Shown one piece after another: positions 5,883 to 48,868 of a stretch of DNA of 49,115 bases (its first letter is position 1; every line of letters begins with the position of its first letter). The notes under the pieces were generated by a model. It ran no database searches and was not told the DNA's origin. It worked only from the letters and a program-made list of their open reading frames with translations. Source of the DNA: Chrysochromulina tobinii (lineage: Eukaryota); NCBI GenBank assembly GCA_001275005.1, contig JWZX01003214.1, positions 1-49,115 on the forward strand. The letters run 5' to 3'. The translations under genes and the position numbers were made by a program.

Positions 5883-8800
5883 ATGGCGACGCTGACCAGG
5901 CATGACGACCCGAGCGAGTCGGCGGCGGCGGCCACCACTAGCGCGCATCCGGCCTCGCAGCAGCAGCAGCCCCGATTTGAGGTGCCCGAGTTCGAGATGT
6001 TCTCCACCCGCCGGCCGCGCAATCTACTCGCCGGGATCTCATCGGGTGCCAAGTCGGCGATCAAGGGCGCAGTGAGCGGTATGGTTGGGCTGTTCGCCGC
6101 ACCCATTGTCGGCGGCAAGGAGAATGGCGTCCCCGGCTTCTTCGCCGGCTTGGCGACGGGCATTGTAGGTGCGGTGGCATTGCCGATGACAGGCGCGGCC
6201 GTGGCCACGTTGCAAATCGGGCGCGGTCTCGTGAACACGGCAGAATCCGTCTTCGAGTCGGCGAACGGCAAGGACTGGGATGAGGAGAAGCGCGTGTGGT
6301 TTGAGTACAACCTGCAGGTGGAGGCGGAGAAGGTGCGCGCACTTGACGAGTTTGCTTCCGAGGACGGCAGCAGATCTGCTCGCACGGGCGTGAATGGCAC
6401 AGGCGGGGTTGGGAGCGCGAGCGGGGCTGGGAGCGCGAGCGGCGCCGGCGCTGGCGCCTCCTCGGGTGGGTACTCCTCGGGTGGGCCCTCCGGGCGCTCG
6501 CCCAGCGACACGGCGTACTATGACTTGCTTGGCGTCCGATCGGATGCATCGACGGATGAGATCAAGAAAGCGTACTACAAGCGCGCTCTCAAGCTGCACC
6601 CGGACAAGAACCCGGGGGATAAGACGAAGGCGGAGGAGTTTCAGAAGGTCTCCGAGGCGTACCAGGTCCTCGCCGACGCGACGATGCGCTCACGTTACGA
6701 CTCACACGGCGCTGCTTCCCTTGACGTCAACTGGATGGACGCGGGCATGTTCTTCACGATGCTCTTTGGATCGGAGCGTTTCGAGCCGTACATAGGCAAG
6801 CGCCTTGATTGTGTCTGAGTGCGCCTGATCGCGTCTGTCTGAGTGCGTCCGCCTGATCGCGTCTGATCGCGCCTGAACGCGTCTGACTGCGTCTGATTGC
6901 GTCTGATTGCGTTGCATGCGAGCCGCACATAGGTAAGCTCGCGCTCGCGACGGCGGCCTCGATGGAGGGGACCCTCTCGATGCGTCGCCTCGCCATCAAG
7001 CAGCAGAAGCGAGAGGTGGAGCTCGCACTGCGTCTCTCGGAGCTCTGCGACAGCGCTGGCGCCAATGGCGGCGCGAGTGGCGTCAGCGGTGGGACCACTG
7101 GCGCCTCCGTCGCTGCCAGTGCTGAAGGCGGTGCCGCCGCCCCCGCTATAGTCGATGGCAGCGCGGCCGCGGCCGGCGCAGACGACCGCTGGGCTAGTCG
7201 TATCCGCGCAGAGGCGAAAGAGCTTGCGTCGGTCTCGTTTGGCGAGTGCTTGCTCTTCACGGTGGCGGAGCTCTACGGCTGCCGAGCTGACGAATACCTC
7301 GGCCTGCACACGAGCGTACGCATGCCCTCGCATAGCCCTCGCATGCCCTCAGATGGCCCTCGGATGGTCCTCTAATGACCTCTAATGACCTCTAATGACC
7401 TCTCCTCGGATGGCCCTCGGATGGCCCTCTAATGACCTCTAATGACCTCTCCTCGGATGGCCCTCGGATGGCCCTCTAATGACCTCTAATGACCTCGGAT
7501 CGGATGGCCCTCGGATGGCCCTCTAATGACCTCTAATGACCTCGGATGGCCCTCGGATGGCCCCATTGATTGCCTCCCTCATCAGGTGGGCTGATTGCCC
7601 CTCGCATGCCCTCGGAGTGCCTCGGAGTGCCCTTGAGTGTCCTTGAGTGCCCTCGGAGTGCCCTTCAGTGCCTTTTAAGTGCCTTGAGTGCCTCTACGCG
7701 ACCGTCAATTTGATTGTCAATGTGCCCTCCGTGTGTGCCCTCCCTGTGTGCAGCTCCTTGGTGTCGAGGGCCACCTTGCCGCCATCCGGATGTTTCGCAT
7801 CTCTTTGCAGAACCATTCCGCGGCCGCCAGCGCCGGCATCCGAGCGGCGGGCGCCGCCGTGCGCACCTTCAGCACCGTCAAGGAGATCGCCGATCAGCAG
7901 CGGAAGGAGGCGGCCGAAAGCGCCGCAGCGGGAGGCGAGACGAAGCCGCAAGGCGACCCGCTTGGATCCCTCACGCCTGCTCAGGTGATGACGTCATTGC
8001 CATGATTGCCACTGATTGCCTCCGATGGCCTCCCTCATCGGGCCTGATGTGCTCGGATCCCTCACGCCTGCTCAGCTCAAGGCGACTCAAGAGAACCTAC
8101 CGGTCTTCCTCGAAGCGATCTGGCATGTGTCCGTGGTCGACATCGAGCGTACGCTCACCGCGGTGACCCACAAGGTGAGCCGCCCCGACCTGATTGGTCT
8201 CTTCATTGAGTGAGCCGCCCCGACCTGATTGGTCTCTTCATTGATCTCTTCATTGATCTCGGGGGAACTCCGAAGGCACGCATGCATGCGCTCACCACGG
8301 CGCCGATCCGAATGCACGCATGCATGCGCTCACCACGGCGCCGAGCACGCCCTGGGCGAGCAGCTGCTGATAGCGACGCATGCATGCGCTCACCACGGCG
8401 TGCCGACCGCTCCCCGCGCATGCATGCGCTCACCACGGCGTGCCGACCGCCCCCCGCGCAGTTGTGTCGCGACCACTCCGTCGATGAGAGCACACGGCTG
8501 CAGCGGGCACACGCCCTCCGGCGGATCGGTGCGATCTTCATGGAGGAGGCCCTCGCGAAGGGAGGCTCCAAGGTGGCCTGATTGACCTTGATTGACCTTG
8601 ATTGCCCTGGAGGAGGCGCTCGCTAAGGGAGGCTCCAAGGTGGCCTGATTGACCTTGATTGACCTTGATTGCCCTGGAGGAGGCGCTCGCTAAGGGAGGC
8701 TCCAAGGTGGCCTGATTGACCTTGATTGCCCTTGATTGCTGTGGAGGAGGCGCTCGCTAAGGGAGGCTCCAAGGTGGCCTGATTGACCTTGATTGCCCTT

Positions 8801-9326
8801 GATTGCCCTTGATTGCCACTGAGTGCCCCTGATTGCCCCTGATGCCAAGGGCCCCAAGGGGCGTGTCGGATGGCCTCTGATGGGCCACTTCGATTGTCTC
8901 TCTGATGGCCTCTGATGACCTCCCTCGTCCACCCTCCTCTCGCAGGACCCAACCAAGAAGGTGACCGACATGGTCAACATGATTGCACCGCAATTCCAAT
9001 CCGCCGCACAGCAAGCGCGCGAGAATGCTGGCGGCGCTGGCGCAGCCAGTGCACGCAGGGCAGCCGCAGGGCCAGCCGCACCCGCCGACCCGCCTCGCCA
9101 ATACGAGCTGGATGAGCTTCGTAAGCTACCGGTACGTGAGCTCAAGGTGCTGCTGCGCGCTCGGCATGCAAGTGCTCACCACGGCGCCCTCCTCTCCCCA
9201 CAGGTACGTGAGCTCAAGGTGTTGCTGCGCGCTCACGGCGTGTCGGAGGTCGAGGTGGTCGAGAAGGAGGAGCTTGTGCAGGTCATTTATGCCCTCCAGC
9301 AGAGCGCGATCAAGCCCGAGGGCTGA
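5883..9326 (+). CDS. DnaJ-domain protein with DnaJ-X domain; exons 5883-6795, 6933-7315, 7754-7984, 8076-8174, 8462-8572, 8946-9131, 9204-9326
   Basis: J domain YYDLLGV...IKKAYYKRALKLHPDKNP...FQKVSEAYQVL, then FFTMLFGSERFEPYIGKL and WHVSVVDIERTL (DnaJ-X). All predicted splices keep the frame. Confidence 0.9.
6796..6932 (+). other. GC-AG intron flanked by a duplicated exon junction
   Basis: CGAGCCGTACATAG|GCAAGC recurs as CGAGCCGCACATAG|GTAAGC. Filler of CTGATCGCGT/CTGATTGCGT repeats. Splicing gives EPYIG-KLAL. Confidence 0.8.
7316..7753 (+). other. Repeat-filled intron with internal CCTCATCAG|GT at 7585/7586
   Basis: CCTCTAATGA, CCTCGGATGG and CCTTGAGTGC arrays. A phase-0 splice joins GLHTS to LLGVEGH. 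Confidence 0.7.
7985..8075 (+). other. Intron whose acceptor is a copy of the upstream exon end
   Basis: GGATCCCTCACGCCTGCTCAG occurs immediately before the GT and again as the intron 3' end. Confidence 0.88.
8175..8461 (+). other. Intron with duplicated 35-bp 5' end and repeated GCATGCATGCGCTCACCACGGCG cassettes
   Basis: GTGAGCCGCCCCGACCTGATTGGTCTCTTCATTGA twice, then four cassette copies. Splice joins THK to LCRDHSV. Confidence 0.85.
8573..8945 (+). other. Intron containing three extra copies of the exon end plus donor
   Basis: TGGAGGAGGC(C/G)CTCGC(G/T)AAGGGAGGCTCCAAG|GTGGCCTGATTGACCTTGATTG present four times in 8541-8800. Confidence 0.85.
9132..9203 (+). other. 72-nt in-frame, stop-free intron with 32-bp exon duplication
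   Basis: GGTACGTGAGCTCAAGGTG(C/T)TGCTGCGCGCTC duplicated around GGCATGCAAGTGCTCACCACGGCGCCCTCCTCTCCCCACAG. Confidence 0.85.
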
Positions 9327-10713: not shown

Positions 10714-12654
10714 ATGGGGCAACACCAACGCGGGCGCCACCTCGCGGGCATGGGGCAAGGCACGCACCAGCACGGTGGAGCGGCAGCACTTCACGCTCGG
10801 GAGCACGCACAATCCGCCGCGGCCGCCGCGGCTGCTGCTGCCGCCGGGTCATTGTTTTCTTCGAGCGACGTGGGGCGAGCGCCCCTGGCCACCGGCGCGG
10901 CCTCGTCGTCGGAGGTGATTGGGCTGGCAGAGAACAGCGATTTGGGCTCTTCGTCCTTCCTCGACCAGTTGCGTCCCAACCCAGGCGGCCGGTACATAGA
11001 GCTCGTCATGCTCAATGTTGCTCTGTGTGCGTGCTTGGTCATGTGGTGCATCGCACGGGAAGCGAGCGGCCTGGACAAGATCGGGGGCGACTCGCCCCCC
11101 GTACGCAAGGAAGCAGAGGCAGTCTACCTCCGGCTGCGCAATCGGTACCTCTCCGTGTACACCCTCGCTGTCTTTGGCGATTGGATCCAAGGCGGCTTCG
11201 CGTATGCCCTTTACGCAGCCTATGGCTACTCGCAGCGCGAGATCAGCCTGATCTTCATCGTCGGGTACGCGTCGTCGATGACGATCGGCACGTACGTATC
11301 CGCGCTCGGCGACACGGGCGGCCATCGGCGCAACTGCGTCGCCTACGGCATCCTGTACGCAGCCTCCTGCGTCCTCTGCCACTCACGCTCCCTGCCTTCG
11401 CTGCTTCTCGGGCGCGTGCTCGGTGGCGTCGCGTACTCGATCCTGTACACGTCGTTTGAGTCGTGGCTGATCGCGGAGGCCGAGGCGCGCCGTCTCCCGC
11501 GCGTGCTCCTCTCTCGCCTCTTCTCCTTCTCCACCTTTTGTAACGCGGGCTCTGCCGTTGTGGCGGGGATGGTCGGCCACCTCGTGATTGAGGTGCTGCC
11601 GTGCGCGTCACGCAATCGCTTCGCGTGTGCCTTCGACGTGGCGGTCGTCTCGCTGCTGGGCGCGTCGCTCGTGGCCGCCACGCGCTGGGGCGAACGGTAC
11701 GGCGATCAGCTGCACAGTACGGGCGAGTCCCTGCTCAAATCGTACCGCACCATTCGCGCCTCGAGGCCGCTTGTGGCGCTGGGGCTCGTGAACTCGTTCT
11801 ATGAGGCGGCGCTGTACGTGTTCGTGTTCCTGTGGACCCCAGCGCTCGAGCGGCGCTCGCGCCAGGGCGACGGCACGTCCAACATGGGGCACGGGCTCGT
11901 CTTCTCCATCTTCATGATCTCGAAGATGGCTGGCTCGCAAGCGTCGCACGTCCTCTCCGAGTACCTGTCGCCCGGGGCGAGGCTGCAGCTCGTCTTCGGC
12001 GGCTCGGCGCTCTGCCTCGCCGCTCCGGTGCTCACCGACTCGTACGAGTACACGCTGCTCGCCTTCTGCGGCTTCGAAGCGCTGCTCGGCATCTACTGGC
12101 CCACAATCGCACTGCTTCGGTGCGGCTCCATCTTGGACGCGCAGGTGAGTCTCGTTAATTGCCTCTTGATGGCCTCTTCTGATTGCCTCTGACTGCGTCG
12201 CTGATGAAGCGCCGGCTCCATCTTGGACGCGCAGCGCGCCTCGACAATGGCAGTCTTCCGCGTGCTGCTCAATTTGCTGGTCATCTTGGTGCTGCCGCTC
12301 GCGGGCGGGCTGCCCGAGGCGCTCGCCTTCTCGCTCGCGGCCGGCATGCTCTTGCTCTGCCCCGCACTGAGCGGCATCTTGCGACAGGCTGAGACGAGCA
12401 CACACGGCAAGGAGGGCCATGTGCTGGTACGTCTGATCGCCCCGAATCGCCTCTGATCGCCTCTGATCGCCTCTGACCGCCTCTACTTGCCCCTACTGAC
12501 CTCTGATCGCCTCCATCATCAGGTACGAGCCGATGATACCGACACCGAGCCCGGCACCTCGTCCGACGACTCCGAACCTATTCATGCGGAGGCGCACGAG
12601 GAGGGACTGGACCTCGCCGCCATCCCGCGCTCTCCGCTACTACCTCGCCCTTGA
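10714..12654 (+). CDS. MFSD5: MFS transporter, molybdate-anion transporter (MFSD5/DUF791) type; introns 12145-12234 and 12427-12522
   Basis: YLSVYTLAVFGDWIQGGFAYALYAAYG, LLLGRVLGGVAYSILYTSFESWL, FYEAALYVFVFLWTPAL, RASTMAVFRVLLN. Multiple TM helices. Confidence 0.88.
12145..12234 (+). mobile_element. Introner-like intron, GTGAGTCTCGTTAATTGCCT family, copy 1 (22-bp flanking duplication)
   Basis: CGGCTCCATCTTGGACGCGCAG before the donor and as the intron end. 5' cassette shared with 16269 and 28012. Confidence 0.8.
12427..12522 (+). other. Repeat-filled intron ending CATCATCAG; short GGTACG duplication
   Basis: CTG|GTACG...CAG|GTACG with CTCTGATCGC repeats. Confidence 0.8.
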
Positions 12655-13176: not shown

Positions 13177-14181
13177 ATGTGCAAGGCCATCGGGCGCCTC
13201 GTACTCCTCTCAGCTGTCCTGTACGGCACGGACGCAGGCCGGCTGAGCCTGCATGCGTCGGCTGAGCAGGGGCTGGTGGAACCGCTCAAGGTTGCGATCA
13301 AGGGGCGTTACGATGAAGAGAGGGAGGAGCAGATCAAGCCGGACATCGATGGGCAGAACAAAAAGGGACGAGTGGCACTCCATCTAGCGGCTTGCAATTG
13401 GCGAGGCGATCTTGAGCCGGTGCGCGTGCTCCTGGAGCATGGCGCCGATCCAGACGCCCGTGATCGCGATGGCCTGGCGGCGCTGCACATCCTCGCCGGT
13501 GGGTGCAATGGTGGCGGCGCGGCTGCTGGGCGCTACGGCGGAGTGGAGGTGGCGCGATTGCTGCTCAAGCACGGCGCGGACCTGAATGCGACGATAGAGG
13601 CCGACGGGCTCACGCCGCTGCACATTGCTGCGGCTGGCGGCAAGGCCTTCCGTTTGCTCGAGTGGCTCGCCAGCAAGGGTGCCCACGTGAACGCGATCGA
13701 CCCTCTGATGACCTCTGATGACCTCTGATGACCTCTGATGACCTCTGATGACCTCTGATGACCTCTGACGACATCAGGTGCCCACGTGAACGCGATGGAC
13801 CGCTCGGGGGCCACGCCCCTGCACGCAGCGGTGCGGGCCGGGTTGCCTCGCGAGGCGCGGGCACTGCTGGAGGCGGGCGCCGACCCGAGCGTCCCCGACG
13901 CCGAGGGCCGCCTCGCAGCCGATGCACTCGTTGGGCGAGACTCGACCGCCGCACTCCTTCGAGCGGATCTTGCGGATTTTGCAGCGATCCGTGCGAACTT
14001 TCTCAAGGCGAAGGCGGAGCGCGCGGCCGCCAAGGCCGCAGCCAAGGTCGCCGCCAAGGTGGGCGATAAGGCGGACGAGAAGGCTGACGAGAACGTGGGC
14101 AATAAGGCGGACGAGAAGGCTGACGAGAAGGTGGACGTGACAGTGGATGCTGCGGCGGCGGCTGAGAGGGTGGAGCTGTGA
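13177..14181 (+). CDS. Ankyrin-repeat protein with signal peptide and C-terminal RVEL; intron 13679-13777
   Basis: Ankyrin motifs GRVALHLAA, VRVLLEHGADPDARD, GLTPLHIAA, GATPLHAAV. Hydrophobic N-terminus. Confidence 0.9.
13679..13777 (+). other. Intron whose donor is a copy of the downstream exon start
   Basis: GGTGCCCACGTGAACGCGAT duplicated. (CCTCTGATGA)n filler, ending ACATCAG. Confidence 0.9.
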
Positions 14182-15439: not shown

Positions 15440-17037
15440 ATGGTGGCGCCTGTTGACGCCGCTCAGAAGCATCGGCCTGACAGCTCGGCCTTCAAGCAGC
15501 AGAAGCTCAAGGTATGGCGTCCGATCCTCACGCCTAAAAAGGTCGTGATGCTCTTCTCCGGGCTGGGCCTCATCTTTCTTCCCATCGGCATCGCGATCAT
15601 CGTAGCGTCGAACCAGGTGCGGCCCGCGTCTGCAGCCGCCCTATCCGTCGCGGCCATGGTCGCAGACGCTGTGCTGCTTCCGATGCTCCCGCTGCCCTTC
15701 TCTGCATGCCTGCTGCACATGCTGGCTCGCTGCCGCCGCCGCCGCCACCCGCCGCCATCGCCTCTCCCGCTGCACAGGGCGGCCTGTAGCCTCGGCGGCC
15801 GTGCACACGCCCTATCACGCACGCGCGCCCCGACCCTCGTGGGCGCAGGTCGCGGTGGCGGAGACAGCGGACTACGGTCGCGATGCGTCGTCAAACTCGA
15901 CGCCGCGCGGCGGCAGCGGCTGCTGCATCGCCAACTGCAACGGCAACTCGTGGGATCGCATCGAGCTCAACCCGTGCTACATCACGCTCACCATCGAAGA
16001 GACGATGACGCCTCCCATCTTCATGTACTACCAGCTCGCCAACTTTTACCAGAACCACCGGCGCTACGTGCGCTCACGTAGCGACACGCAGCTCGTGGGT
16101 GATACGACCCACCTGGCGGCCGATTTGAAGGAGGATTGCATGTACCACTACAGCGCGTCATGGGACGGCGGCGCGCCCATCAACCCGTGCGGTCTCATCT
16201 CGTGGTCCTGGTTCAACGACACATTTGCCCTGATGCGCCCCGACGGCACGCCAGTGACCCTCGAGCAGGTGAGTCTCGTTAATTGCCTCTTGATTACCTC
16301 TGCTGATTGCCTCTGATTGCCTCTGATTGCCTCTGATTGCACGCCGGTGACCCTCGAGCAGGACGCTATCGCTTGGCAGTCCGACCTGGACACCAACTTC
16401 CGCAACAGCGTCGACGGCTCCTCGGGCCGAAACTTTCCGATGCTTGCCTACTGGCGCAACATCAGCTGCGAGGCCGACCCGACACCGGGCACTGGGCTCG
16501 CCCCGCGCACTCCCGCACAGCGCGCCGCGTGCGTGAGTGCCAACGCCGCCACCCCCGGCGTGGGGTGGTGCTTCCGCGGATCGGGCTTCTGCACCGAGGA
16601 TCAGCACTTTGTCGTGTGGATGCGCTCCGCGGGCCTGCCCCAGCTTCCGCAAGCTCTACGCGCGCATCAACGAGCCGCTGCCCGCCGGCACCTACACGGT
16701 GCGCGTCTCGAACGGTGTGCCCACCAACACAGGCAACGTGACGGACATTAACGTCCTCGGCCCGCACTACAACTGGGGCTACCCGCTCGACAACCCGACG
16801 CCGAAGGTGCAGCGCTTCCTGTACCCAGTCGGCTCGTTCAGCGGGCACAAGACCGTGGTGCTCACGACCATCTCGTGGATAGGCGGCCGCAACTTTTTCC
16901 TTGGGTACGCGTACCTCGTCGTCGGCATCGTGTGCATCGTGCTCGCGATGACCTTCTTCATCAAGTGGCGCTTGTCGCCCCGCGATCTGGGCACCGCGGC
17001 CTACGTCACCTACAACATGGATGCGCCGCCCAAGTGA
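15440..17037 (+). CDS. CDC50: CDC50/LEM3 flippase beta subunit; introns 15617-15848 and 16269-16361; +1 frameshift at C4 16638-16641
   Basis: FKQQKLKVWRPILTP, YYQLANFYQNHRRYVRSRS, PCGLISWSWFNDTF, FVVWMRSAGLP/SFRKLY, SWIGGRNFFLGYAYLVVG. Confidence 0.93.
16269..16361 (+). mobile_element. Introner-like intron, GTGAGTCTCGTTAATTGCCT family, copy 2 (23-bp flanking duplication)
   Basis: GCACGCC(A/G)GTGACCCTCGAGCAG duplicated. ATTGCCTCTG filler. Confidence 0.8.
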
Positions 17038-17770: not shown

Positions 17771-17840
17771 TCGGAGAACAGTCACCAGGTACCTCGGTCA
17801 GCTGTCAGCCCCGCGGTAGCGGATCACCTTCACATCGGAT

Positions 17841-19671: not shown

Positions 19672-22600
19672 GGTGCTGGGCGTTGTCGCGAGCGGTGGCG
19701 GAGGCTTAGCGTCGTGGCTGGGGGTGTGAACGGGAGTGTGAATAGCGTCGAGGCGGGGGGTGAGCGGCGGCACGCGTGCGTCGTCTGTCGCGAGGCCGAA
19801 GACAGAGAGCCCAAAGTCAGTGAGCTTGATGTGGCCGTCTTGATGGATCAGCACGTTATCGGGCTTGATGTCGCGATGGACTACCCGGAGGGTCGAGTGC
19901 AGGTACTCAAGCGCGAGCGCGATCTCGGCCACGTACCTGATGAGGGAGGTCATCAGTGGTCATCCGAGGTCATCAGTGGTCATCAGTGGTCATCAGTGGT
20001 CATCAGTGGTCATCAGTGGTCATCCGAGGTCGTCCGAGGTCATCCGAGGTCATCAGTGGTCATCAGTGATCATCAGTAGTCATCAGAGGTCATCAGAGGT
20101 CATCCGAGGTCGTCCGAGGTCATCAGTGGTCATCAGTGGTCATCCGAGCCACATACTGGCGCGCATGCGACTCGTCCAAGAAGCCGACCGCCTTAAGGAG
20201 CGAGAGCAGGTCGCCACCGTTGACGAATTCCATCACCAAATATAGATGCTCGCGCGACGCGAAGGAGTAGTAGAGCTTGACGACATACGGATGCTCGGCG
20301 GTCGCGAGGATGTCACGCTCCGCCTTGATTCGGTGCACCTGGTTCTTTCGGCGCATGTCCGTCTTACGCAACACTTTGATGGCGTACCTGTGGGGACGCG
20401 GGGCGCCGTGGTGAGCGTGTGCATGCAAGTCAAACTTGTGCAGGCGTCGGGGCGCCGTGGTGAGCGTGTGTGCATGCATGTCACGCTTGTGCAGGCGTCG
20501 GCGTAGATCGCGTACAGGTCTCGCGTGGTCTTCATCGCCGCGAGGACCACATGACCATACGCGCCGCGGGAGATGGGCTTGAGGATCTCGAAGGACGAGA
20601 TGTTGTGCGACTTGGGGCGGCTGCGCTGCCGGCGCGCGCTGGCCGTCGACGAGACGCTGCTAGGGATGAGGATGCTGTGAACACCTCCGGAGGCTGTGAA
20701 CTGGCCCACCTCCGTCGACGAGACGCTGCTAGGGATGAGCACCGCCACCTCCGTCTCCGGCAGGGGGAAAGGCGGCAGGGGGGATGGCGGCAGAGGGGAT
20801 GGCGGCAGTGCAGCGGGCAGCGGCTCAGCCGGCGCTTTGGCCAGCGAGTCCGCCTGAGGCATCGGGTCCATCGGCAGCGCCGTCGCGGGCGCCGTCGCGG
20901 TCGGCGTCGTCCGCCGCATCGAAAGTTGCCATGCTGCTGCCGGATTCGATCCCCGACGCGCCGTCGTTCCTGCTTGCGGCCGCCTCGTGCCGCTCGATCT
21001 CGTGCCGCTCGAGATCGGGAGATCGCTCGAGATCGGAAGGAGCAGCGGCGAGCGCGGGCTACTGTCCAGCTCGCGCTCGACACAGCGCGCGCACGGGCTA
21101 CTGTCGCCCGCGCTGTCGTGAGCGCTCTCGCGCGGCGCGGCGGTGCCGATCTCGCCGATCTCGCCCGCGCTGTCGTGAGCGCTCCGCGTGAGCGAGAGGG
21201 GCAGGGCACTGAGTGGTTCGGTCATCACGTGCCGCGGCGGCGAGGCACCGCGTGGCTCGGCCATCATCGGCGCGGCGATCAGCCTGATCGAGGTTGGCAA
21301 GTTGCAGGCTCGAAGTTCCAAATCGGGCGATGCGCCCGTCACGGCGCCGATGTGCTCGACACGGCGCTCGACCACAGGCGGCTCGGCAGGCGGCGCCGGC
21401 GCCGTGACAGGCGCCACGGTGGCGGCGGGCGGTGGCGGCGGGGCGTCGTCGTGGGCATGAGCGTCCTCGTGGGCGTGGGCGTCGTCTTGGGCGTCCGCGA
21501 GGAAGGGTGCGACGTGCGAGAGCATGCGGATGAGCTGTCGCGCGTACGAAGCGGTCGTGCCGTCGGCAAGGCGCTGCGAGGCGCTGAGCAGCTCCCGCGC
21601 GTACGCGAGCATGCGCGAGCACGTCGTGGGCGAGGTGGTCAGGTGGGCATGCGCGCACACGCCTTCGAGGGCGGCGAGGATGGGCGCCGTGTCGGGCACC
21701 CCAATGGGCGCCGTGTCGGGCGGCGGGTGGGCGGCCGTTGTGGTTTCGGCCGAGCGGAGCGCCGAGCTGAGCGCCTGATCTCGGCGCTTAATCTCGGACG
21801 AGATGTGCCTGCGCAGCCTCTTGAGCGAGTGCTCGACGTGGAAGACGACCACGTCGGTCATGCAGAGCTTGGAGTGCTCGGCCATCAAAGCGATCTCGAC
21901 CGTGCACTCGCAGATGCGGCAGAGCAGCTTGGGCCGCGGCGGCGGCGGCAGCGACGAGCAGGGCGAGGGGCATAGGGGGCGGGGGGCACAGGGGCGGGGG
22001 GTACAGGGGCGGGAGCATGGACGTCGAGCCGAGCGACGAGGGCGCCGTCGTGAGCGACGAGGGCGCCGTCGTGAGCGAAGCGGGCGCCGTCGTGAGCAGT
22101 GCCGTCGCCTCGGCCGCCTCGGCCGCGACCGTTGTACTCCGCTCCACGGGCACAGAGAGCGCCGTGTCGGGCGTAGAGAGCGCCGTGTCGGGCACAGAGA
22201 GCGTCGTGTCGGGCACAGAGAGCGCGCCGACCGACGCGAAGGCGCCGTGCCGGGCACCCTCGGCGCAAAAAGCATGCGGCCCACGCGCGGCGGTCTCGTC
22301 ATCGGGGTTCGTCAGCGTCGAGGCGAGGGGTCGAGATCGATCGAGATCAGAGCCCGGGAGGGATGGATCGCCGGCGTGCGCGCCGTCGTGAGCGCCGACT
22401 TGCACGCCGTCGTGGCGGCTGTGAATGTGAATGTGCGGCGTGCCGTCCTGTGAACTGCTCGCCTGTGAACCACTCGCCTGTGAACGGCTCTCCGCCGCCA
22501 CGGTCGCTTCCCTATGCGACTGATGCACCTGTGAACCAGATGGGGCGCCGTGTCGGGCAGCGGCGGGCGCGCCCGCGAGCTTGGTGCTCATCACGGCGCC

Positions 22601-23948: not shown

Positions 23949-25282
23949 TCCTCGAGTGACGAGATCGACATCTCGAGTGACGAGATCGACATGGACGAGG
24001 CCGCGAGCGCCGCCACATCTCGATGCACCGCTGAGGACGTGCGACCTCTAGTGCCGTCCTCGTCCTCGTCCTGACGAAACCTCGGGTCGTCCTCGTCCTC
24101 CTCCTCCTCGCCGTAGCAAAGATCGAGCGACCTTCGCCGGTGTGAGCTGAGCTGCTCGTCTCCAGCCAGCACGGGCTGCGGGCTGCTGCTGCTGCTGCTC
24201 TCCAACGCGTCAAGCTCGGCGTCGTCGGGTGCAGCGCAGCGGCGCAGCCAAGAGGCATCGCCCGCCGATCGAGCGAGCGCATCGCCCTCCGCCGCTGCCG
24301 GCAGCGACGCGAAGGAGCGGGCGCGTGCGCGACGAAACCTCGAGCTCGCTCCGGAGCTCTCCTGACGAAACCTCGAGCTCGCTCCGGAGCTCTCCTGACG
24401 AAACCTCGAGCTCGCTCCGGAGCTCACGGCGCCTCGGCCGCCGTCGGGCTCCTCGGACGGCGGGTGCCGCGGCGCCAGCACCGCGCTCATCGGCGCCCGC
24501 CGCGCCTCGGGTGAGAGCTCGGGCAGTGGTACGAGGCGCGCATACCTGTGGGGAAACGCGGGGCGCCGTGGTGAGCACGTGCATGCATCGGGAGAGAGCT
24601 CGGGTCAGTGGGAAACGAGGCGCGCGCACGGCGTGAGGGCGACCACGAATCGTGTGGACAGGTTGACAGCGTCCGCCGAGATGAGTGCTGCGAGCGGGGC
24701 GCGCAGGGCCTGCGCCTGACGCAGCAGCTCCGTACACAGCGGCCCGGCCGGTGGCGGCGCTGCTGGCGGCGATGCTGGCGGCGCTCCTGGCGCTGGCGCC
24801 GCCGCCGCCGCTGGCGGCTCGGAGGCGGTCGCGAGGCAATTGGGAAGCGCCAGCTGACGTTCCAGCTCCAGCAGAGTCTCCAAGCGCCGGTCGCTCCCGC
24901 TACTGGGAGAGTCGGTCGCCGGCGCTGCGCCCGGCTCCTCGACACGGTCCTCGAGGAAGGCGATGCACAGCTGCCGCAGCGCGAGGAGCGCTTGGCGCTG
25001 CTCGGCGGTCAGCTGGCGGGCGGCGGCCATCTCGGCATGCGTGTGCGGTCCGCCGCCGGCGACTGCGCCCGCCGCCTGCATCAACGGCGACGCGAGCAGC
25101 ACTCGCAGCTGCGCATCCGCCTGCTGCTTCGCACGGCGGAGCGCTTCCGACAGGGACGGCTCGCGGCTGCCAGCCCCGGCGAGGCCGAGGAGGTTGTTTG
25201 CGGATTGCACGCGACGCGGACTGACGTGGGCGGACTCGGCGATGGCCACGCGCAGGTCGGGGCGCCTGTAGCCGGCGGGCAT
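17841..25282 (-). CDS. IRE/RIM15/MAST(Greatwall)-type AGC Ser/Thr kinase; introns 24546-24629, 20388-20515, 19937-20156 (possibly 18171-18236); +1 frameshifts at about 21975-21979 and 19599-19601
   Basis: [84 protein letters not shown]...EHSKLC zinc finger and an N-terminal IREH1-like helical region. Long low-complexity linkers. Confidence 0.9.
19937..20156 (-). other. Repeat-filled intron ending CCTCCCTCATCAG inside the kinase domain
   Basis: CA|GTATGTGGC...CAG|GTACGTGGC restores HARQYVAEI. About 20 units of ACCACTGATG/ACCTCGGATG in sense orientation. Confidence 0.9.
20388..20515 (-). other. Intron with two GCTCACCACGGCGCC cassettes
   Basis: CT|GTACGCGATC...CCCCACAG|GTACGCCATC restores DLYAIKVL. 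Confidence 0.88.
23776..23896. repeat. In-frame 24-bp tandem repeat (RQDGSPRF)n in the kinase linker; further in-frame repeats at 18546-18680 (45 bp), 22030-22100, 22148-22222 and 24330-24425 (33 bp)
   Basis: Directly visible tandem units with lengths that are multiples of 3. Confidence 0.9.
24546..24629 (-). other. Intron with about 40-bp diverged exon duplication and a GCATGCACGTGCTCACCACGGCGCC cassette
   Basis: CC|GTGCGCGCGCCTCGT...CCCCACAG|GTATGCGCGCCTCGT. Splicing joins ORF 24605-25282 in frame to ORF 21788-24490 (ALTPYARLV). Confidence 0.85.
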
Positions 25283-25570: not shown

Positions 25571-28517
25571 ATGCCGGCCGAGGTGACCGCGCCCAGCCTG
25601 CTGCGCCAGCTGGGCCAGTTGGCTGCTCCGACGGCCAGCTCGCCTTCGAATAAGGGCTCCAAGCTCAAGCGTCAGCGCGTGGGCGATGGTGGCGCCGCCG
25701 GCTTCCTGCGCGAGCTCGGCCAGCTCATCACCAAGATCTCCGCGACGGGCGTGACGGTCGAGGAGCTCGCACCGCCGCTACGCCTCGTCGTCGCGCTTGC
25801 GACGCTCTCCAACGTGTCCAGCTGGTGGCCGGCCTCCTCGGCGCAGACCTTTGAGGGGCCCCTTGACGCGGCGCGCCGGCTGCTCTCGGCGCTGCTGCCC
25901 GTCACGGGCCCGCTCGACTTCTTCGACCACACGGCGGTGCTGCTCGGCGCGTTCGGTCAGCTCGGCGCGTTCCGCGCCGAGGCGATGCACTGGCTCGTGC
26001 TCGCGCATGAGGCCCTAGGCTGCTGGTACGCCCTTCATCCCGGCCGAACGGCCCTGCTCTACCACCTGCGCGACCCGCAGCTGACGGCGGACGCGGGGTT
26101 CGCACTCTTTCGGATCGGGAGCTGCTGTGCCGCGCGGCGCGGAGGGGCGGGCGGCGCGTGGCTCGAGCGCCACCATCTCAAGATGGTGTACGCCGTGCTG
26201 CGCGAGCGAGAGAGGACCCAACTGCCGCCGCTTTGGGTGCTTCGAGCCATCTTGACCCATCAACTCCCGAAGCTCACGGACCCGAATGACGCGCGGCTCA
26301 CCGGTGTGTTCAGCATGTCGCCGTACCACGAGCTCGCGTGCGTTGATTACGTAGCCGCCGACGAGCTCACCGCACTCATCGCGTGCATGCGTAACGACAC
26401 GTTTACGACCGCTGCTGACCGTCAGTGGCGCGAGCGGCGCGAAGCAGCTGCCTATCTCCGAGGCACGGGCGGCACGCACGCGCACGCGGCGCTCGCGGCG
26501 CAAAAGCAGCAGGCGGCCGCCGCCCTCGCGCGTGCGTCCGACACCGGTGCCGCTGACGGCAACGCGAACGGCAACGGCCTTGCCGGAAGCGCCGTCCCGG
26601 GCGTCTTCGGCCCGCTGGTGTGTGAGCGATTTCTTTCAGAGCGCTTATCCTCCCTCGAAGCGGCGCTATGGTGCGCCGAGTGCCGCTGAGTGCCGCTGAG
26701 TGCCGCTGATCGCCGCTGAGTGCCGCTGAGTGCCGCCGAGTGCCGCCGAGTGCCGCTGAGTGCCGCTGAGTGCCACGGATCGCCGCTGAGTGCCACGGAT
26801 TGCATCCCTCATCAGGCTGCAGCAATGTGCGGTGGTGCTGCAGCTGGCGTCGCCGATGGAGGTGTGCGCGCGACCCGAGCTGCGACTCTCCGCGCGCCTC
26901 CTCTGGCATAGCCCCGCCGCCAAGGTGCTCCAGGACCGGGCGGACGCCGCCTTCGAGGCTGGCATGTCCGTGGGCGCCTCCGACGCCGATCGACGGTTGG
27001 CCCTCGTGCAAGCGGCACGGCTCGCCCGAGCTGTGAATGCCACCGGCGGCGCGGCGCAGCGATGGCTGGCGGAGGGGTGCCTCCACGTGGATAGTTCGTG
27101 CTGGCGCGCCGTGCTGCTGCTCGTGGCCCACCTACCGTTGCTCGAGTGGGGGCAGGTGAAACCCGCCCTCGACGGCGCGTCACGCTTCGCCCAAGAGCTG
27201 CATGCAATCGCGCCTCGCGGCGAGGACCAGCAGATCAGCTGCATGCTCTTCGTCGTCCTCGGCGAGCTGCTCGAGCATTGGCTCACGACGTTGCGTGTGC
27301 GGGGCACCATCCAGCCCGGCCGGTGCGTCCCAATCTCCGAGGGAGATTTGCTATGGAGCTCGGGCTCGGAGCTCGAGACGTTACGCACGCTGGTCGCGTG
27401 GGTGGATCTGCAGGCCCAGCTCGCACTGCAGGCCGCCCCTCGCTCGACCGCCCTTCACCTCGCCGTGATGGGCTTCTTCGCCAAGGTGGGCAGGCTGCAC
27501 ACACACTGCTCCGTCCCCTTTATGGTCGTGCCCTCCTACCCCGTCGCCCAGCGCTGCTTGCTCCACTCGTGCCCACTCGTCGTCTCGCGCCTCTGCGGCT
27601 TGCTTGCGGACTACCGCAAGGAGATCGAGGGGCTCAAGGCCACCTACGCCTCCTCTCCGCTGCCTCGGAACGCCCGAGCGGGGGCGAATGGTCTACAGGT
27701 GTGAATGACCTGTGAATGATTGTGAATGACTGTGTGAATTGCTGCTGGCTGGGGTCTGATTGCCACGGAGTGCGTCTGATGGCCTCGCGCGTGTGCGCGT
27801 GAATCGAGCACCACAGGACATCCCGCGCTTCAACTCGTTCGTGCTCGATGCATGCAATGCCCTGTGGCGCAATCGAGCCTTCGTCGAGTGCCCGAGCGAC
27901 GCGGCGCCCAACACGGCGGCGCAGGTCGACGAGCAGCTCAGCTGCCTGCGCCTGCCCAAGACGACGCTCACGCAGCTGCATGCGGCTCTGGAAGCCGTAC
28001 TCGTCCCTCAGGTGAGTCTCGTCAATTGCCTGTGAGACCTCTGAGTACCACTGATACTGAGTGCGACCGATGGCCACAGATGGCCACTGAGTGCCTCTGA
28101 TGGCCACTGATGGCCACTGAATGCCTCTGATGGCCACTGATGACCGTACTCTTCCCACAGGAGGGCGAGGCGCCGTCCGACGATCAGGTCTCATGGGGCC
28201 ATGGAGGGCGCACCACGTTCGAGTTGCGCCGCACCCTCTCCATCACACACGGCGCCGCGTGGCAGGGGCACGTTCGCACCTTTTTAAACTCCGGGGCCGT
28301 CGCCGCCCATGTAGACGATCGTGCGGCCGCCAACGGCTCGCCCACTTCTGTACCGAAGCGCCCCACCGTACACGCCCTCGAGAACCCGAATCTGAAGGCG
28401 CAATACCTCGATGAGCTCCGGCGTGAGGGGTATGTGGGGCTGTACGACTTTCTGCATGCATTCATCTCGTCGCTCGCGCGCCGGCAGCAGCGGCAGGGGA
28501 TGCAGCAGGCGGCCTGA
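25571..28517 (+). CDS. CENPI: Centromere protein I (CENP-I/Mis6/Ctf3)-like; introns 26671-26815, 27699-27816, 28012-28160
   Basis: C-terminal motifs VSRLCGLLADYR, FNSFVLDACNALWRNRAF, LSITH and YLDELRREGYVGLYDFL resemble the Mis6/CENP-I C-terminus. Splices keep the frame. Confidence 0.7.
26671..26815 (+). other. Repeat-filled intron (GAGTGCCGCT)n ending CCCTCATCAG
   Basis: TG|GT...CAG|G gives AALW-LQQC. Confidence 0.85.
28012..28160 (+). mobile_element. Introner-like intron, GTGAGTCTCGTCAATTGCCT family, copy 3 (17-bp diverged duplication)
   Basis: CCGTACTCGTCCCTCAG versus CCGTACTCTTCCCACAG. GATGGCCACT filler. Confidence 0.8.
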
Positions 28518-37600: not shown

Positions 37601-37901
37601 CGGCGGCCGGCGGCCTGACGTGGACAAAGCTGCTCGCATAAAAACCTTTGCGCCACTCGTCGATTGTAATGCAGCCATCCGAGTCGAGGTCGAGCTCGCT
37701 CATCAGGGTTGCGAAAACCACGTCATCGTAGCCTTGCTTTTGCAATGCGCTCTTCAACTCATCGCAAGAGATGGTCTGGTCGCTGTCGACGTCGACCTCC
37801 TTGAAGATCCTCGTCGGGTCTTGCCACTGGAGCGTCTCCGGCGTGCGCACCTCGACACCATCGACAGGATTTGGCGCCACCTTCGTGACGGAGCCGCCCA
37901 T
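31698..37901 (-). CDS. Large EF-hand + HET-like + RNI-type LRR (NLRC3-like) protein; introns 36175-36242, 35928-36022, 35780-35848, 35379-35452, 32576-32651, 32170-32273
   Basis: EF loops DVDSDQTISCDE and DLDSDGCITIDE. FVSHWWG, YWVCAYANNQW, SRIWCGYE motifs. Dozens of LxxLDLSxNxLGxxG repeats. Six GT-AG introns that keep the frame. Confidence 0.88.
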
Positions 37902-42065: not shown

Positions 42066-44654
42066 ATGCTGCTCGCGGCCGTCGGCCTGACGGCCGCCGT
42101 CGACAAGCTCACGCTTCCAACCTTCCTGAATTCTCACATGGCGCTGCAGCGTGCGCCGCTCTCGGCACGCCTCTGGGGCTGGGCGTCACCCAATGCGACC
42201 GTGACCGCTGCGATGGATGTTGAGAGTGTGAAGGCGACGCCCGATGCGGACGGGCTGTGGATCGTCGAGCTGCCCCCGCAGCCAGCCTCAACGGGTAAGA
42301 CGATCATCGTCACGGACGGTACGACCAGAATCACGCTTGACGACGTAGCCTTCGGCGATGTGTACCTCTGCTCCGGGCAGAGCAACATGGAGTTCAGCGT
42401 CAACGCCGCATTCAATTCTACGCTCGAGATCGCCGACTCGGTCAATTACCCCGACCTGCGTCTCGCAACGGTGCAAAGGGCCATGTCCGACAAGCCAGAG
42501 CAAGATGCTCCGTCCAAGGCCAACTACACATGGGCGCGCTCGAGCCCAGCAGCCTTCGCGCCCGCCGGCGGCGACAACTTCTCGTGGTTCTCGGCCACGT
42601 GCTACTTCTTCGGGCGCGAGGTGTACAAGGTGCTCGGAAACGGCAAGGTACCTATCGGCCTCATTGCTTCCGACTGGGGCGGCCAGAGTGTCGAGAGCTT
42701 CTCGTCGCCCGAGGCGCTAGCGGACCGCACCTGCGGAGGTACGCTGCCTGGCCATGCCGCAGCATCGTCGAGCCAGGACTATCCCTCGCCGCCAGGATCG
42801 CCAGGACTATCCCAAGCCGCCAGACCGCCAGGACTCGCCCTGCCCGCGGATGAGCCCTGGCCAGGCCCCTCACAGCTGTGGAATGCCATGATCTATCCCC
42901 TCCGGTTGATGCGATTTACCGGGGCTACATGGTATCAAGGGGAGGTATGTGGCACGGAGTCCTTGCTCGGCCTGGCAGTCTCATGCCACTGCGCCCGGCC
43001 GTCCTAGCTCGCTCACCAGCCACGCGGCACGTCTCTCGGCGCGCCGCGCCGCACGCGCGCCCCCGACGCAGGTAAATAGGGCCGACCCTGCTGGATACTA
43101 ACCCTAACCCAACCCCCAACGCAGGCGAATTGGGCCGACCCTCCTGGATACTCCTGCCGATTCCCGGCCATGATCGCCGACTGGCGCCGCCAGTTCGGGC
43201 TGCCCGATCTCTCCTTCTTCTACGTGCAACTCGCCCCGTATCGCCTGGACTTCTCGCGCTTCCGCTTGGCACAGGGTGCCGCGCTGCAGCTGCCCAAGGT
43301 CGGCTTCGCAGTCGCCATCGACCTAGGTGACTTGACGAGCCCCTACGATGCCATCCATCCGAGGCGGAAGCAAGAGGTGGGCCGGCGTCTCGCACTCTCG
43401 GCACGCGCCATCCAGTACGCCGACCGATCCGTCGTCTACCAGGGGCCGACCCTCTCGGCTGCCCAGTTCGTCTCGAGCAACACGATCTGGGGGACGAGCT
43501 ACGGCGCCCGCCTGAGCTTCGTGCCCGGAACGGCGGACGGGCTGCATGCGGCCGGCACAGCCGATTGCGTGGCCTGCTGCGAGGAGTCGCCTTTCGAGGT
43601 GATGGACGCCACGGGATTGTGGACGCGGGCCGCCATGGGCATCACCGGTGATGAGGTGTCACTCCGTGGTGTGCCGCACCCCATCCAGGGCATTCGGTTC
43701 GATTTCGAGGGCATGCCGCAGTGCTCACTGTATAATGGCGTGGGCGGCCCCGACAACCATCAGGGACTCGCGGCACCGCCCTTCCAGTACTGCGCGTACG
43801 GCACGCACGACGGCCAGCCTGCCTGGGCCGCCTCCTGCGAGCCCAACGAGTGTGCTCCCGTCGGTATTCCTGTGCCGTCCGCCGGAGTCGCCGTGGCAGT
43901 GGCCGCCCTGGGCTTTACTGTTCTCGTCCCACTGCCACAGTTCTTCAAGCTTGCAAAGGCACGCTCTTCCGCTGGCGTGAGCCTGTTCACAGTCATCATC
44001 ACGATGTTTTCCTCGATGCTCAACGTTGGCGCAGCTCTCATCACAAAGTGGCGTCAGATCACCGCATGCGGACACCTTGGTTGGAGCTGCGTCCCCAACC
44101 TGCTCGACCTGTTCCAAAACATACAAGTGGCCATTATTGCCGCAATCCAGCTGGTCATGGTTGTGGCATACCCGCCGAACGCCAAACGCGCGCGAGCCAT
44201 GGCGGCGACCACCCTCGGCATGGCAATCATCCTTTGGGTTGCATGCGTGTGCGCATCACTGGCGGCGCCTTGCGGGAAGCGCACGCTTGCCTTCGCTGCC
44301 GTGCAGAGGTCTGCCGGCTCCCTCGCTGCCCTGGTGCATTACGCTCCGCAGCTTCTCGCCACGTGGCGGCACCGCGCGTCGGGCTCGCTCTCCCTCCTAA
44401 CTTACACGTTGCAAGTCGTGGGAGGCTATCTCAACATCTACCAGAGCATCACTCAGGGTGTCTCCCCATGGCCTGTCTGGACACCATGGCTGATCTCTAC
44501 GAGCATGCAGAATGCCGTGCTAGTGAGCGCATTCGTCTTTGACGCGCGGCGGTGGAGGGCACGGCAACGGGCTCGAGGCAAGTGCGCGCTGCCCGACGAT
44601 AATCTTGTGAACAGCTCCGAAAGAGAGCCTACACCCCCCCCGCCGTCCAGCTGA
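42066..44654 (+). CDS. Sialate O-acetylesterase (SASA/SGNH) fused to a C-terminal double PQ-loop membrane domain; intron 42945-43124
   Basis: FGDVYLCSGQSNME, FSATCYFFG, PIGLIASDWGG, LWNAMIYPL, WYQGE|AN, FFYVQLAP, IHPRRKQEVGRRLA. The same ORF continues into VPLPQFFKLAKARSSAGVS and YAPQLLATWRHRASGSLS with TM helices. Confidence 0.88.
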
Positions 44655-47244: not shown

Positions 47245-48868
47245 ATGCTTCGCGCAGCCGTGTCGACGGCGCTCCGGCGGCCGGCGTCGTTGTGCCGGTC
47301 GCAGCCGGTGCGGCGGTTTAGCAAGCGGACGGACGGCTTCGACGAGGCACTGCCGCGGCGCGACATCATCGCGCCGCTCTTCTTCGCGGGCGTCTATGCG
47401 GGCTCATGGGTCGCGGCCGACGAAGGCCGCATCCAGTCGCTCGCAGAAAAGGTGGACGTGAACACGGACCCGACCAAAAACCCGACGCCCACGCAGCTGT
47501 TCCACCACTTGTGGCCGTATGTCGCGGGCACGCTCGGCATGCTCTTCGAGTCGGTCGCATGCAAGTTCAGCCAGACGAAGGACATGGAGTGGCTGTGCAC
47601 GACCGCGCTCAACGACGACGTGAACGCGGCGGTGGCGCTCTCGCTGCTCACGCCCCCGGCGGAGTTCTCGCCCGCGTTCACGCGTGCCATCTGCGACCGG
47701 AAGGGCGCGCTCCGGCGCGTCAACGAGATCGTGCAGATCTACAAGACGTTGCCGCGCGACCAGCACGACGACGTGGTCGTCAACGCGTGCGTGGTGATGG
47801 CGAAGGTGGCGGCGCTGCCCGAGCTCAAGGCGGAGGGGCTCGCCGTGGCCGACTTTAGCTGGATGATGCCCCCCGGCGAGAAGGCGCCGCTCTACGCGCA
47901 GTACGGTCTCGAGGGCCTCCAGATGCTCTGGCAGTCGGACACGCGCAGCTTGCTTTCGTCAGGTGGCGTGCTGCGCACGTATGAGTTGCTAGAAGGGAGC
48001 CCGCTGCGCCCGAGTAAGCTGGAGAGCTCGGTGATCAACCAGCTGCTCGCGCACCGCCTCTTCAACCAGTTCGTGTTGCGGCGCGCCGAGCTCCTCGAGC
48101 AGGTGCGCTGAGGGCCTCTGAGGGCCTCTTGAGGGCCTCTTGAGGGCCTCTGACGGCCTCTGATGGCCTCTGACGGCCTCTGATGGCCTCTGATTGCGTT
48201 CCTCATCACTCCTCGGGCAGGGGCGCGCGCTCGAAACGGCGCTTATGCGAGAGACGCGCGCGGTCGGCGCGGCCCAGCGCCCCAAGAACGTCTGGCAACG
48301 GGCGGGGGTGCAGAGCGGCGAGTCCGAGATGGAGATCTCGTCGCGCGTGCGCTCGGCCGAGCTCGAGGCGGTGCGCGGCAGCTTGCGGGTGCTCGAGGCC
48401 TACCAGCCCTCGAACGCCCTCACGTACCTCGAGCAGTACACCCCCTACATCTCCATGGCGAGCGCGGCCACGCTTGGTGCCCTCTACGGCGGTGCGCGCG
48501 GCTACTTTCGTGGCTGGTACCAGGACGTGACGCCTTCAGTCTGCCGTGAGCTCGCCGCGCACGTGGGCGCGCGCGCCGCGCTGGGCGCCCTCATCCTCGT
48601 CGCCGCCTTCGAGTACGCGCCATGGCTCAAGGCTCAGGCGCTCAAGCTCGCGGGCGAGAGCGAGGTGACGTGCTACTCAGACTCGAATGCTCTCAAGCAA
48701 CTCGTGGCCATCGACTGCGCGTACCTCGGTGTGATTGGGCTCGTCAACTTCGCCTTCCCTTTCTGCCTCGTGCCTTGGGCATGCAACGTCGCACAGATCC
48801 TCGTGCTCCCGAGTCAGGCGCCCGCGAGCGCGCGCAGGACGAACCCGACGTCGACGACCAAGCAGTGA
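47245..48868 (+). CDS. Hypothetical membrane protein with mitochondrial-type presequence; intron 48103-48220
   Basis: MLRAAVSTALRR presequence. Two GC3-rich ORFs joined by a phase-0 intron. C-terminal TM segments. Confidence 0.7.
48103..48220 (+). other. Repeat-filled intron with duplicated exon end
   Basis: CTCCTCGAGCAG|GTGCGC versus CTCCTCGGGCAG|GGGCGC. GGCCTCTGA(G/T/C) filler. CCTCATCA cassette directly before the duplicate. Confidence 0.85.

What the first reader, a model, noticed from the sequence alone, without database searches (positions are those of the whole stretch)
6796..48220. Apparent intron-generating system: exon duplication + splice-site cassette + sense-oriented micro-repeat filler
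Seen: at least 12 introns in 7 unrelated genes are flanked by a direct duplication of exon sequence of variable length (about 6-40 bp, 0 to several mismatches): 6796, 7985, 9132, 12145, 12427, 13679, 16269, 19937, 20388, 24546, 28012, 48103. One splice site lies inside the duplicated exon sequence and the other usually comes from a short shared cassette, so splicing restores the coding sequence exactly. Known: Introners of Micromonas and Aureococcus also co-opt a splice site from a target-site duplication, but these are short, fixed-length TSDs around TIR-bearing elements. Inference: variable long duplications, no visible TIRs and a different tandem filler in each copy fit staggered-break repair with templated or reiterative synthesis better than cut-and-paste transposition. 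Different divergence levels suggest ongoing activity.
Basis: partly seen in the sequence, partly recalled or inferred. Interest (0 to 1): 0.9.

Follow-up and report, generated by a model that had tools for sequence, protein, structure and literature searches.

The report
Introns that seed new introns
In a Chrysochromulina alga many short introns consist of one end of another existing intron plus a 9-44 base copy of the gene's own neighbouring exon, several are present in some close strains and absent in others, and they likely arise when DNA repair copies from another intron, which would be an ongoing way to make introns without a transposon.

Summary
All 12 introns are at the stated places with an exon duplication at the junction (6-32 bp; 8 of 12 score at a level reached by 8 of 2611 random pairs). 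Splicing restores homolog-colinear proteins; RNA contigs join one of them directly. The host is of the Chrysochromulina tobinii/parva group, for which the 2025 Introner survey lists 0 families. In 102 related loci, 61 duplications run 9-44 bp (median 23) with no fixed length and no TIRs. Nine introns, including window intron 9132, are present in some close strains and precisely absent in others. The inserted part is a piece of another intron: a 5' or 3' splice cassette plus 10-base filler that carries a branch-point-like word. The far end of the duplication often shares 3 or more bases with that filler (19 of 43 vs 10% null), relatives are often nearby (15 of 52 vs 4), and two introns carry another gene's exon end. 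Best reading (0.6): microhomology-guided template switching copies half or whole introns into exons; selection keeps the spliceable ones. Rivals: Replitron-type helper, reverse transcription. Not found in the papers searched.

The parts
6796..6932 (+). GC-AG intron in DnaJ gene; both splice sites inside a 20-bp exon duplication (6782-6801 / 6919-6938, 2 mismatches) around 10-base filler
   Evidence: RNA piece ends fit a 137-base skip (indirect)
7985..8075 (+). DnaJ intron, 3' site from a 25-bp copy of the upstream exon end (7960-7984 / 8051-8075)
8573..8945 (+). DnaJ intron holding a 4-copy 67-bp array of exon end + 5' splice site + filler (8541-8809): the same copying acting on its own junction
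9132..9203 (+). DnaJ intron, class A1: 5' site from a 32-bp copy of the downstream exon, 3' cassette with branch-point-like word and pyrimidine tract; precisely absent in L010
12145..12234 (+). MFS-transporter intron, class B: shared 5' cassette, filler, 22-bp exon copy giving the 3' site; cassette variant shared with 16269
   Evidence: RNA piece ends at 12122 (indirect)
12427..12522 (+). MFS-transporter intron, class A2: 6-bp duplication, filler, 3' cassette
   Evidence: RNA piece ends fit a 96-base skip (indirect)
13679..13777 (+). Ankyrin-gene intron, class A: 25-bp copy of downstream exon, 7 filler units; one unit longer in L018
16269..16361 (+). CDC50 intron, class B: shared 5' cassette, filler, 24-bp exon copy; spliced in RNA
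   Evidence: (joint 16253 to 16347 in 3 RNA runs, not in DNA)
19937..20156 (-). Kinase intron, class A2: 9-bp duplication, about 20 filler units, 3' cassette
20388..20515 (-). Kinase intron, class A1: 10-bp duplication, doubled 51-base cassette
24546..24629 (-). Intron upstream in the kinase transcription unit (same gene assumed), class A1: diverged exon copy, cassette like that of 20388
28012..28160 (+). Class B intron, 18-bp duplication, filler length varies between strains
48103..48220 (+). Intron with 18-bp duplication across the junction, filler and a decayed 3' cassette
43072..43124 (+).
26671..26815 (+). Intron with filler and A2 cassette but no junction duplication
7316..7753 (+). DnaJ intron of stacked filler blocks with an internal A2 cassette, no junction duplication
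8175..8461 (+). DnaJ intron with internal 35-40 bp duplications and four A1 cassette cores, no junction duplication

Best explanation
These are young spliceosomal introns, each built from one end of another existing intron plus a 9-44 base copy of the host exon, and they are likely made by microhomology-guided template switching during DNA repair or replication, with no transposon involved. Shown: the anatomy, the shared cassettes, the variable duplication, presence/absence between strains, microhomology at the far end of the duplication, nearby relatives, and two introns that carry another gene's exon end. Inferred steps: (1) a DNA end in an exon pairs through a few bases (AG|G, up to 10-18) with the exon-intron junction of a donor intron, often one within a few kb; (2) it copies the donor's 5' cassette (class B) or, in mirror image, its 3' cassette (class A) with some filler; (3) it leaves inside the filler and re-pairs with the host exon at a filler-like word 9-44 bases away, so that this exon stretch is made twice and supplies the missing AG or GT; (4) filler and cassettes hold a branch-point-like word 15-58 bases before the 3' site, so sense-oriented products are spliced and survive, others are removed by selection; (5) if the donor is the same junction an array results (window 8541-8809), if the donor is already repeat-flanked and the target resembles its repeat the whole intron is copied; (6) recombination between the two repeats can delete the intron precisely.
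For: Duplication score 10 or more in 14 of 20 A1, 22 of 71 A2 and 25 of 37 B cassette sites, against 2.1%, 0.5% and 2.8% for shuffled pairings; 61 duplications 9-44 bp, median 23. 36 of 37 B cassettes follow AG and 79 of 91 A cassettes precede G, 71 of them GT or GC. Far-junction microhomology of 3 or more bases in 19 of 43 testable introns (of 65) vs 9.8% at other exon positions, 0 of 5000 permutations reached the mean. Nearest relative of an A2 end lies in the same region for 15.0 of 52 vs 4.1 +- 2.2, including genes on opposite strands; a rare B variant occurs as three local pairs plus one single (7 of 37), one pair in two different window genes 4.1 kb apart. Intron in L040 ends in 18 bases of the L011/L062 exon but matches its own exon for 10; intron in L082 ends in 24 bases of the L043 exon and matches its own for 16; no exon-level homology between the gene pairs. 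Nine whole-intron presence/absence sites whose empty allele equals the spliced product. Branch-point-like word in 101 of 117 3' ends vs 16% of coding windows and 30 of 117 on the other strand. Background of plain 12-45 bp tandem duplications: 15 in the window vs 0 in three shuffles.
Against: No event was seen de novo and no enzyme is identified; the genome could not be searched for RT, Rep/HUH or polymerase theta. Locality was not significant for A1 ends (2.5 of 18 vs 1.5, p 0.24) and weak for B starts (3.8 of 35 vs 1.0, p 0.017), and the cassette of window intron 9132 has an identical 40-base end in another region. 24 of 43 testable introns show under 3 bases of far microhomology and 5 of 39 class A cases share no base left of the 5' site. 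49 of 71 A2 and 12 of 37 B sites have no strong duplication. Loci were chosen by one cassette, so densities are biased. Direction (gain or loss) is argued by parsimony for two sites only. Sequence cannot tell a genomic template from a cDNA or circle.
Confidence: 0.6

Rival explanations
1. Class B (perhaps also A) is a tiny non-autonomous copy-and-paste element moved by a Replitron-type HUH endonuclease.
For: Replitron-1 of Chlamydomonas inserts in one orientation right after RG, makes variable-length TSDs that include the RG, and carries a fuzzy right end taken from downstream of the parent copy (PMC10288648 section 9); one Replitron locus is reported in C. tobinii. Class B has a sharp left end after AG (36 of 37), variable duplication and donor-derived tails.
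Against: No terminal direct repeat or conserved right end in the 26 B bodies listed (by eye); class A is the mirror image and has no RG target; AG is also the splice consensus; microhomology at the far junction and self-arrays need no transposase; the paper saw TSDs and fuzzy ends in no other Replitron family.
Confidence: 0.14
2. The template is RNA: a reverse transcriptase primes at a nick and copies an intron end or pre-mRNA (target-primed, SINE-like or cDNA-templated repair).
For: Variable long TSDs are typical of target-primed reverse transcription (recalled, no call); class A inserts end exactly at the 3' AG; all 20 window introns examined are in sense; filler and cassette share a strand in 49 of 50 arrays with a cassette nearby.
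Against: Class B has the opposite polarity (exact 5' end, ragged 3' end); donors lie in neighbouring genes, also on the other strand; arrays include exon sequence across the junction; no poly(A) tails in the introns listed (by eye); sense orientation is explained by selection for splicing.
Confidence: 0.15
3. Old introns whose ends are being rewritten by local tandem duplication, with the empty alleles being losses.
For: Junction arrays at existing introns are common and vary between strains; the site L034:9197 looks like loss; no outgroup genome was examined.
Against: Does not explain a 19-26 base cassette shared by unrelated genes or an intron carrying another gene's exon end; at L028:3194 two different haplotypes are empty and the filled allele nests with one of them, which favours gain.
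Confidence: 0.07
4. Presence/absence is an artefact of short-read assemblers collapsing the direct repeats.
For: Longest exact shared run is 21-30 bases at 6 of 8 sites measured; all alleles are assemblies.
Against: Runs are only 19 and 17 bases at window 9132 and L034:9197; five sites show the empty allele in 2-5 loci; empty alleles carry their own flanking substitutions; the same contigs keep other perfect 30-44 bp duplications.
Confidence: 0.04

Closest known systems
Introners with TSD-co-opted splice site (Micromonas, Aureococcus, Polarella classes, Chrysochromulina sp. Tara MAG family 5, E. huxleyi fam24)
   Same: One splice site carried, the other taken from duplicated exon; coding sequence restored; related introns in unrelated genes. 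E. huxleyi fam24 is listed as unknown mechanism, 10-bp terminal direct repeats, co-opt 5' carry 3'.
   Different: Published families have fixed TSDs of 3-8 bases and end-to-end similarity; here 9-44 bases, only one end shared, low-complexity body, no TIR. C. tobinii is listed with 0 families.
Daphnia pulex new introns by staggered double-strand-break repair (PMC4202315)
   Same: Population-level presence/absence, direct repeat of adjacent exon, internal repeats.
   Different: Repeats 4-12 bp and source mostly unknown there; here longer repeats and the source is other introns of the genome, with shared cassettes.
Tandem genomic duplication model and intron transfer between paralogs (review PMC3443670)
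   Same: Duplicated AG|GT exon gives splice sites (6796 type); an intron is passed on by recombination.
   Different: Here foreign intron sequence lies between the copies, and transfer is between unrelated genes through 10-18 matching bases, not between paralogs.
Replitron-1 / Replitron-N1 of Chlamydomonas reinhardtii (PMC10288648)
   Same: Oriented insertion after RG, variable TSD, end sequence traceable to the parent copy.
   Different: 0.9-3.6 kb elements with 6-bp terminal direct repeats and about 53-bp conserved termini; not described as making introns in the passages read.
Microhomology-mediated template switching (FoSTeS/MMBIR, polymerase-theta templated insertions)
   Same: Short homology at both junctions, nearby templates, tandem duplication (recalled; only search listings seen).
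   Different: Known as a source of rearrangements, not as a recurrent self-propagating source of introns in the listings seen.

Membership tests
TIR/MITE-type Introner | Fixed-length short TSD within a family | tested here: not met
   61 duplications 9-44 bp, commonest length 5 of 61
TIR/MITE-type Introner | Terminal inverted repeats | tested here: not met
   Longest terminal inverted match 6 bases in 1 of 61, 1-3 in 53
Introner (survey definition) | Similarity between copies reaches near both splice boundaries | tested here: not met
   One end is host exon copy; met only in donor-recipient pairs; criterion read
Introner (survey definition) | One splice site carried, the other co-opted; precise splicing | tested here: met
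Introner (survey definition) | Recent spread, presence/absence among close relatives | tested here: met
   9 sites
Replitron | Oriented insertion directly after RG with variable TSD (Replitron-1) | tested here: inconclusive
   Class B follows AG in 36 of 37 but this is also the splice consensus; class A does not fit
Replitron | Short direct terminal repeats, conserved termini at both ends | tested here: not met
   No such repeat or conserved right end in the B bodies listed (by eye)
Replitron | Autonomous partner encoding a Rep HUH transposase with matching termini | not testable with these tools
   No genome held
Non-LTR retroelement / SINE | Fixed 3' end with A-rich or repeat tail, variable 5' truncation, variable TSD | tested here: inconclusive
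   Class A has a fixed 3' end and variable TSD; class B has the reverse polarity; no poly(A) seen
Non-LTR retroelement / SINE | Partner RT element or Pol III promoter | not tested
   Only 17 window proteins scanned, none RT-like
Intron gain by tandem genomic duplication | Intron consists only of duplicated exon with AG|GT | tested here: not met
   All 12 have non-exon sequence between the copies; both sites inside the duplication at 6796 and two related sites
Intron transfer between paralogs | Donor and recipient genes are paralogs | tested here: not met
   No exon-level homology in two donor-recipient pairs beyond the junction

The most novel reading that the evidence does not exclude
A self-propagating, transposon-free intron system: ordinary introns carrying a multimerised branch-point filler act as templates that seed new introns in nearby and distant exons through short homology, evolve chimeric ends from the exons they pass through, and are lost again by recombination between their own repeats, so that gain and loss are running now within one algal species group and are invisible to Introner pipelines.
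Probability: 0.4. Interest if true: 0.92.

Novelty: new variant of a known kind. Interest (0 to 1): 0.8.

Why it matters
Where the sequence of new introns comes from is a long-standing open question; recent surveys attribute ongoing gain mainly to transposons and list this species with no Introner family. Here the donors can be identified, the junction signatures are countable, and alleles with and without the intron exist in close strains of a small-genome alga, so the rate, polarity and enzymes of intron birth and loss can be tested directly. It also shows a class of gain that current pipelines filter out (one shared end, low complexity), so it may be under-counted in other haptophytes.

Tried and rejected
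No whole genome is held and metagenome records could not be opened as genomes, so no genome-wide count and no search for an autonomous element. Cassette and filler scans of viral contigs gave 1, 0, 0 and 0 hits and of prokaryote genomes 0. A second, cleaner RNA mapping was not obtained, so 11 of 12 named junctions lack a directly listed RNA joint. Six of the 102 loci or sites were left out as chance or unrelated matches before counting (L015, L023, L060, L072, L098, and the viral hit L001). A recapture estimate gave about 22 regions for the exact B cassette, but the collection may hold only part of each assembly, so I do not use it as a genome copy number. Of 17 indels inspected, 8 were array-unit, nested or filler changes and were not counted as presence/absence; the automatic splice check passed 7 of 9 and the other two were read by eye; the collapse check was mis-anchored for L037 and covers 8 of 9. 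Mismatch rate in duplications is flat along their length, so it gives no sign of donor-derived bases at the near junction. A telomerase origin of the filler was considered: no run of two or more CCCTAA-type units was found in the loci. Distant-orthologue intron positions were not tested: the one metagenome scan went to the cassette. One paper fetched from a recalled DOI was unrelated. Earlier-finding look-ups by place and by the first word set were empty.
Full report
Host and genes. The best named homolog of the first DnaJ exon is a Chrysochromulina-labelled transcriptome protein at 67%, and two single-exon window proteins fall in 90% clusters that hold Chrysochromulina parva proteins, so the host is of the C. 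tobinii/parva group; I did not establish the strain. The seven host genes are DnaJ, an MFS_5 transporter, an ankyrin protein, CDC50, a protein kinase and two genes without Pfam match.

The observation. All 12 introns are present with an in-register copy of exon sequence at the junction, 6-32 bp with 0-2 mismatches. Eight score 12 or more, a level reached by 8 of 2611 random GT..CAG pairs; four (12427, 19937, 20388, 24546) are weak alone. Removing them restores open frames, and all six DnaJ junctions align without gaps to 9 of 9 homologs, which hold the duplicated peptide once. Contigs of three RNA runs join across intron 16269 and across the ordinary intron 15617, and the DNA run does not. For five more introns only the ends of RNA pieces fit the predicted skips (indirect); the joint table was cut and the remaining junctions are not shown in RNA. 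The filler is one family of 10-base units, not a different repeat each time, and two named introns have none.

A larger sample. One scan of metagenome contigs for the 19-base 5' cassette returned 102 loci, about 351 kb non-redundant in 22 regions, from assemblies like the window and from field-type assemblies 1.1-3.9% different (the labels are my inference). Three cassette classes occur: B (5' cassette carried, AG from the exon copy), A1 and A2 (3' cassette carried, GT or GC from the exon copy). Strong duplications flank 25 of 37 B, 14 of 20 A1 and 22 of 71 A2 sites, against 2.8%, 2.1% and 0.5% for shuffled pairings. Without array units, 61 duplications run 9-44 bp, median 23, in introns of 54-168 bases. 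There are no TIRs. A branch-point-like word lies 15-58 bases before the 3' site in 101 of 117 cases, against 16% of coding windows (the consensus is recalled, branch points were not mapped).

Activity now. In 15 pairwise alignments (about 73 kb, partly overlapping and biased to cassette-rich regions; two long ones had no such site) I inspected 17 indels and found 9 whole introns present in one allele and absent in another, the empty allele equalling the spliced product. One is window intron 9132, absent in L010; five other named introns covered by a field-type allele were present. Five sites are filled only in culture-type, two only in field-type, two vary among field-type loci. At L028:3194 parsimony favours gain; at L034:9197 it favours precise loss through the repeats; for 9132 the direction is open. 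Assembly collapse is unlikely at 9132 and L034:9197 (exact runs 19 and 17 bases) and less well excluded at six others (21-30 bases). Arrays of exon end plus cassette plus filler also vary in copy number, as in the window at 8541-8809.

Where the insert comes from. Three results point to other introns as templates. First, the far end of the duplication continues the donor-type filler or cassette by 3 or more bases in 19 of 43 testable introns, against 9.8% at other exon positions; 24 of 43 show less. Second, relatives are often close: 15.0 of 52 A2 ends have their nearest relative in the same region (null 4.1), also in a gene on the other strand, and a rare B variant occurs as three local pairs, one of them window introns 12145 and 16269 in different genes; the test was weak for B and not significant for A1, and distant identical copies exist. 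Third, two introns end in exon sequence of an unrelated gene that holds a similar intron: L040 carries 18 bases of the L011/L062 exon while matching its own for 10, and L082 carries 24 bases of the L043 exon while matching its own for 16. So some apparent target duplications are pre-existing homology, and mismatches are not simply age. The window also has 15 plain tandem duplications of 12-45 bp against none in three shuffles, a background process of the same size range.

Mechanism. I commit to microhomology-guided template switching (0.6): a DNA end at an exon site pairs with a donor's splice junction, copies one cassette and some filler, and returns to the host exon at a filler-like word, making 9-44 bases twice; products that splice survive in coding sequence. 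Self-templating gives arrays, repeat-flanked donors give whole-intron copies, and the repeats allow precise loss. These steps are inferred; no enzyme or de novo event was seen. Rivals are an RNA or cDNA template (0.15), a Replitron-type helper (0.14), rewriting of old introns (0.07) and assembly artefact (0.04).

Comparison with the literature. Seen: passages of bioRxiv 10.1101/2022.06.06.494994 and PMC9860276 with supplement rows (file cut when stored): marine Chrysochromulina MAGs have Introners, the figured family with a 4-bp TSD; C. tobinii and C. parva appear only in the genome list; the pipeline needs similarity near both ends and removes low-complexity families. Passages and supplement rows of PMC12130899 (files 13 and 14 not searched): C. 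tobinii 0 families; E. huxleyi fam24 of unknown mechanism with 10-bp direct repeats may be related. Parts 1-2 of 4 of bioRxiv 10.1101/2020.10.14.339549: TSDs of 3-8 bases, fixed per class. Passages of PMC4202315, PMC3443670, PMC11282704, PMC4580454, PMC8379373; section 9 part 1 and passages of PMC10288648. Ten searches showed no description of this system; the library lacks most subscription papers and bioRxiv supplements were not seen, so prior description is not excluded. An earlier AI note on the same genome reported the same footprint and read it as a mobile family; it is a lead, not support.

Verdict. A real, active intron-generating process. It works like an Introner in outcome but fails the TSD, TIR and two-end tests. 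New variant of a known kind (repair-linked intron gain and intron transfer), possibly a new category; interest 0.8.

Noticed in passing
window 16638: All four runs laid lack one base here, so the window likely has a one-base assembly insertion that frameshifts CDC50.
   Followed up: no
window 17841-25282 (minus): The long kinase gene does not give one open frame after removing the three introns; further introns or assembly indels are likely (indels at 22057 and 22173).
   Followed up: partly
window 31686-37901 (minus): EF-hand and leucine-rich-repeat gene or genes with 186-201 bp tandem units, one copy of which holds a short insertion near 35380-35452.
   Followed up: no
window 42945-43124: Intron whose last 53 bases duplicate the 3' splice site and exon start with a short telomere-like spacer; possible recursive or alternative 3' site.
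   Followed up: partly
window 2056-2140 and 17615-17772: Intergenic simple arrays (5-base unit x17; 14-base unit x12) of other families than the intron filler.
   Followed up: no
L083:300-420 and L087: Intron holding about 40 bases of exon from the gene in L028/L047 between two B cassettes: a third likely donor-recipient case, seen by eye.
   Followed up: partly
L034:9166-9252: Polymorphic GC-AG intron; 16 of 91 class A cassettes are followed by GC, so GC donors are tolerated.
   Followed up: partly
L001:4495-4554: A viral-collection contig ends in the A1 cassette with an upstream duplication; probably host DNA or an integrated element.
   Followed up: no
L054:12307-13890: About 1.5 kb AT-rich intergenic duplication or insertion absent in L020.
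   Followed up: no
L031 versus L022, L029, L047, L070: Culture-type assemblies hold two exon haplotypes at this gene, so they are not all one strain.
   Followed up: no
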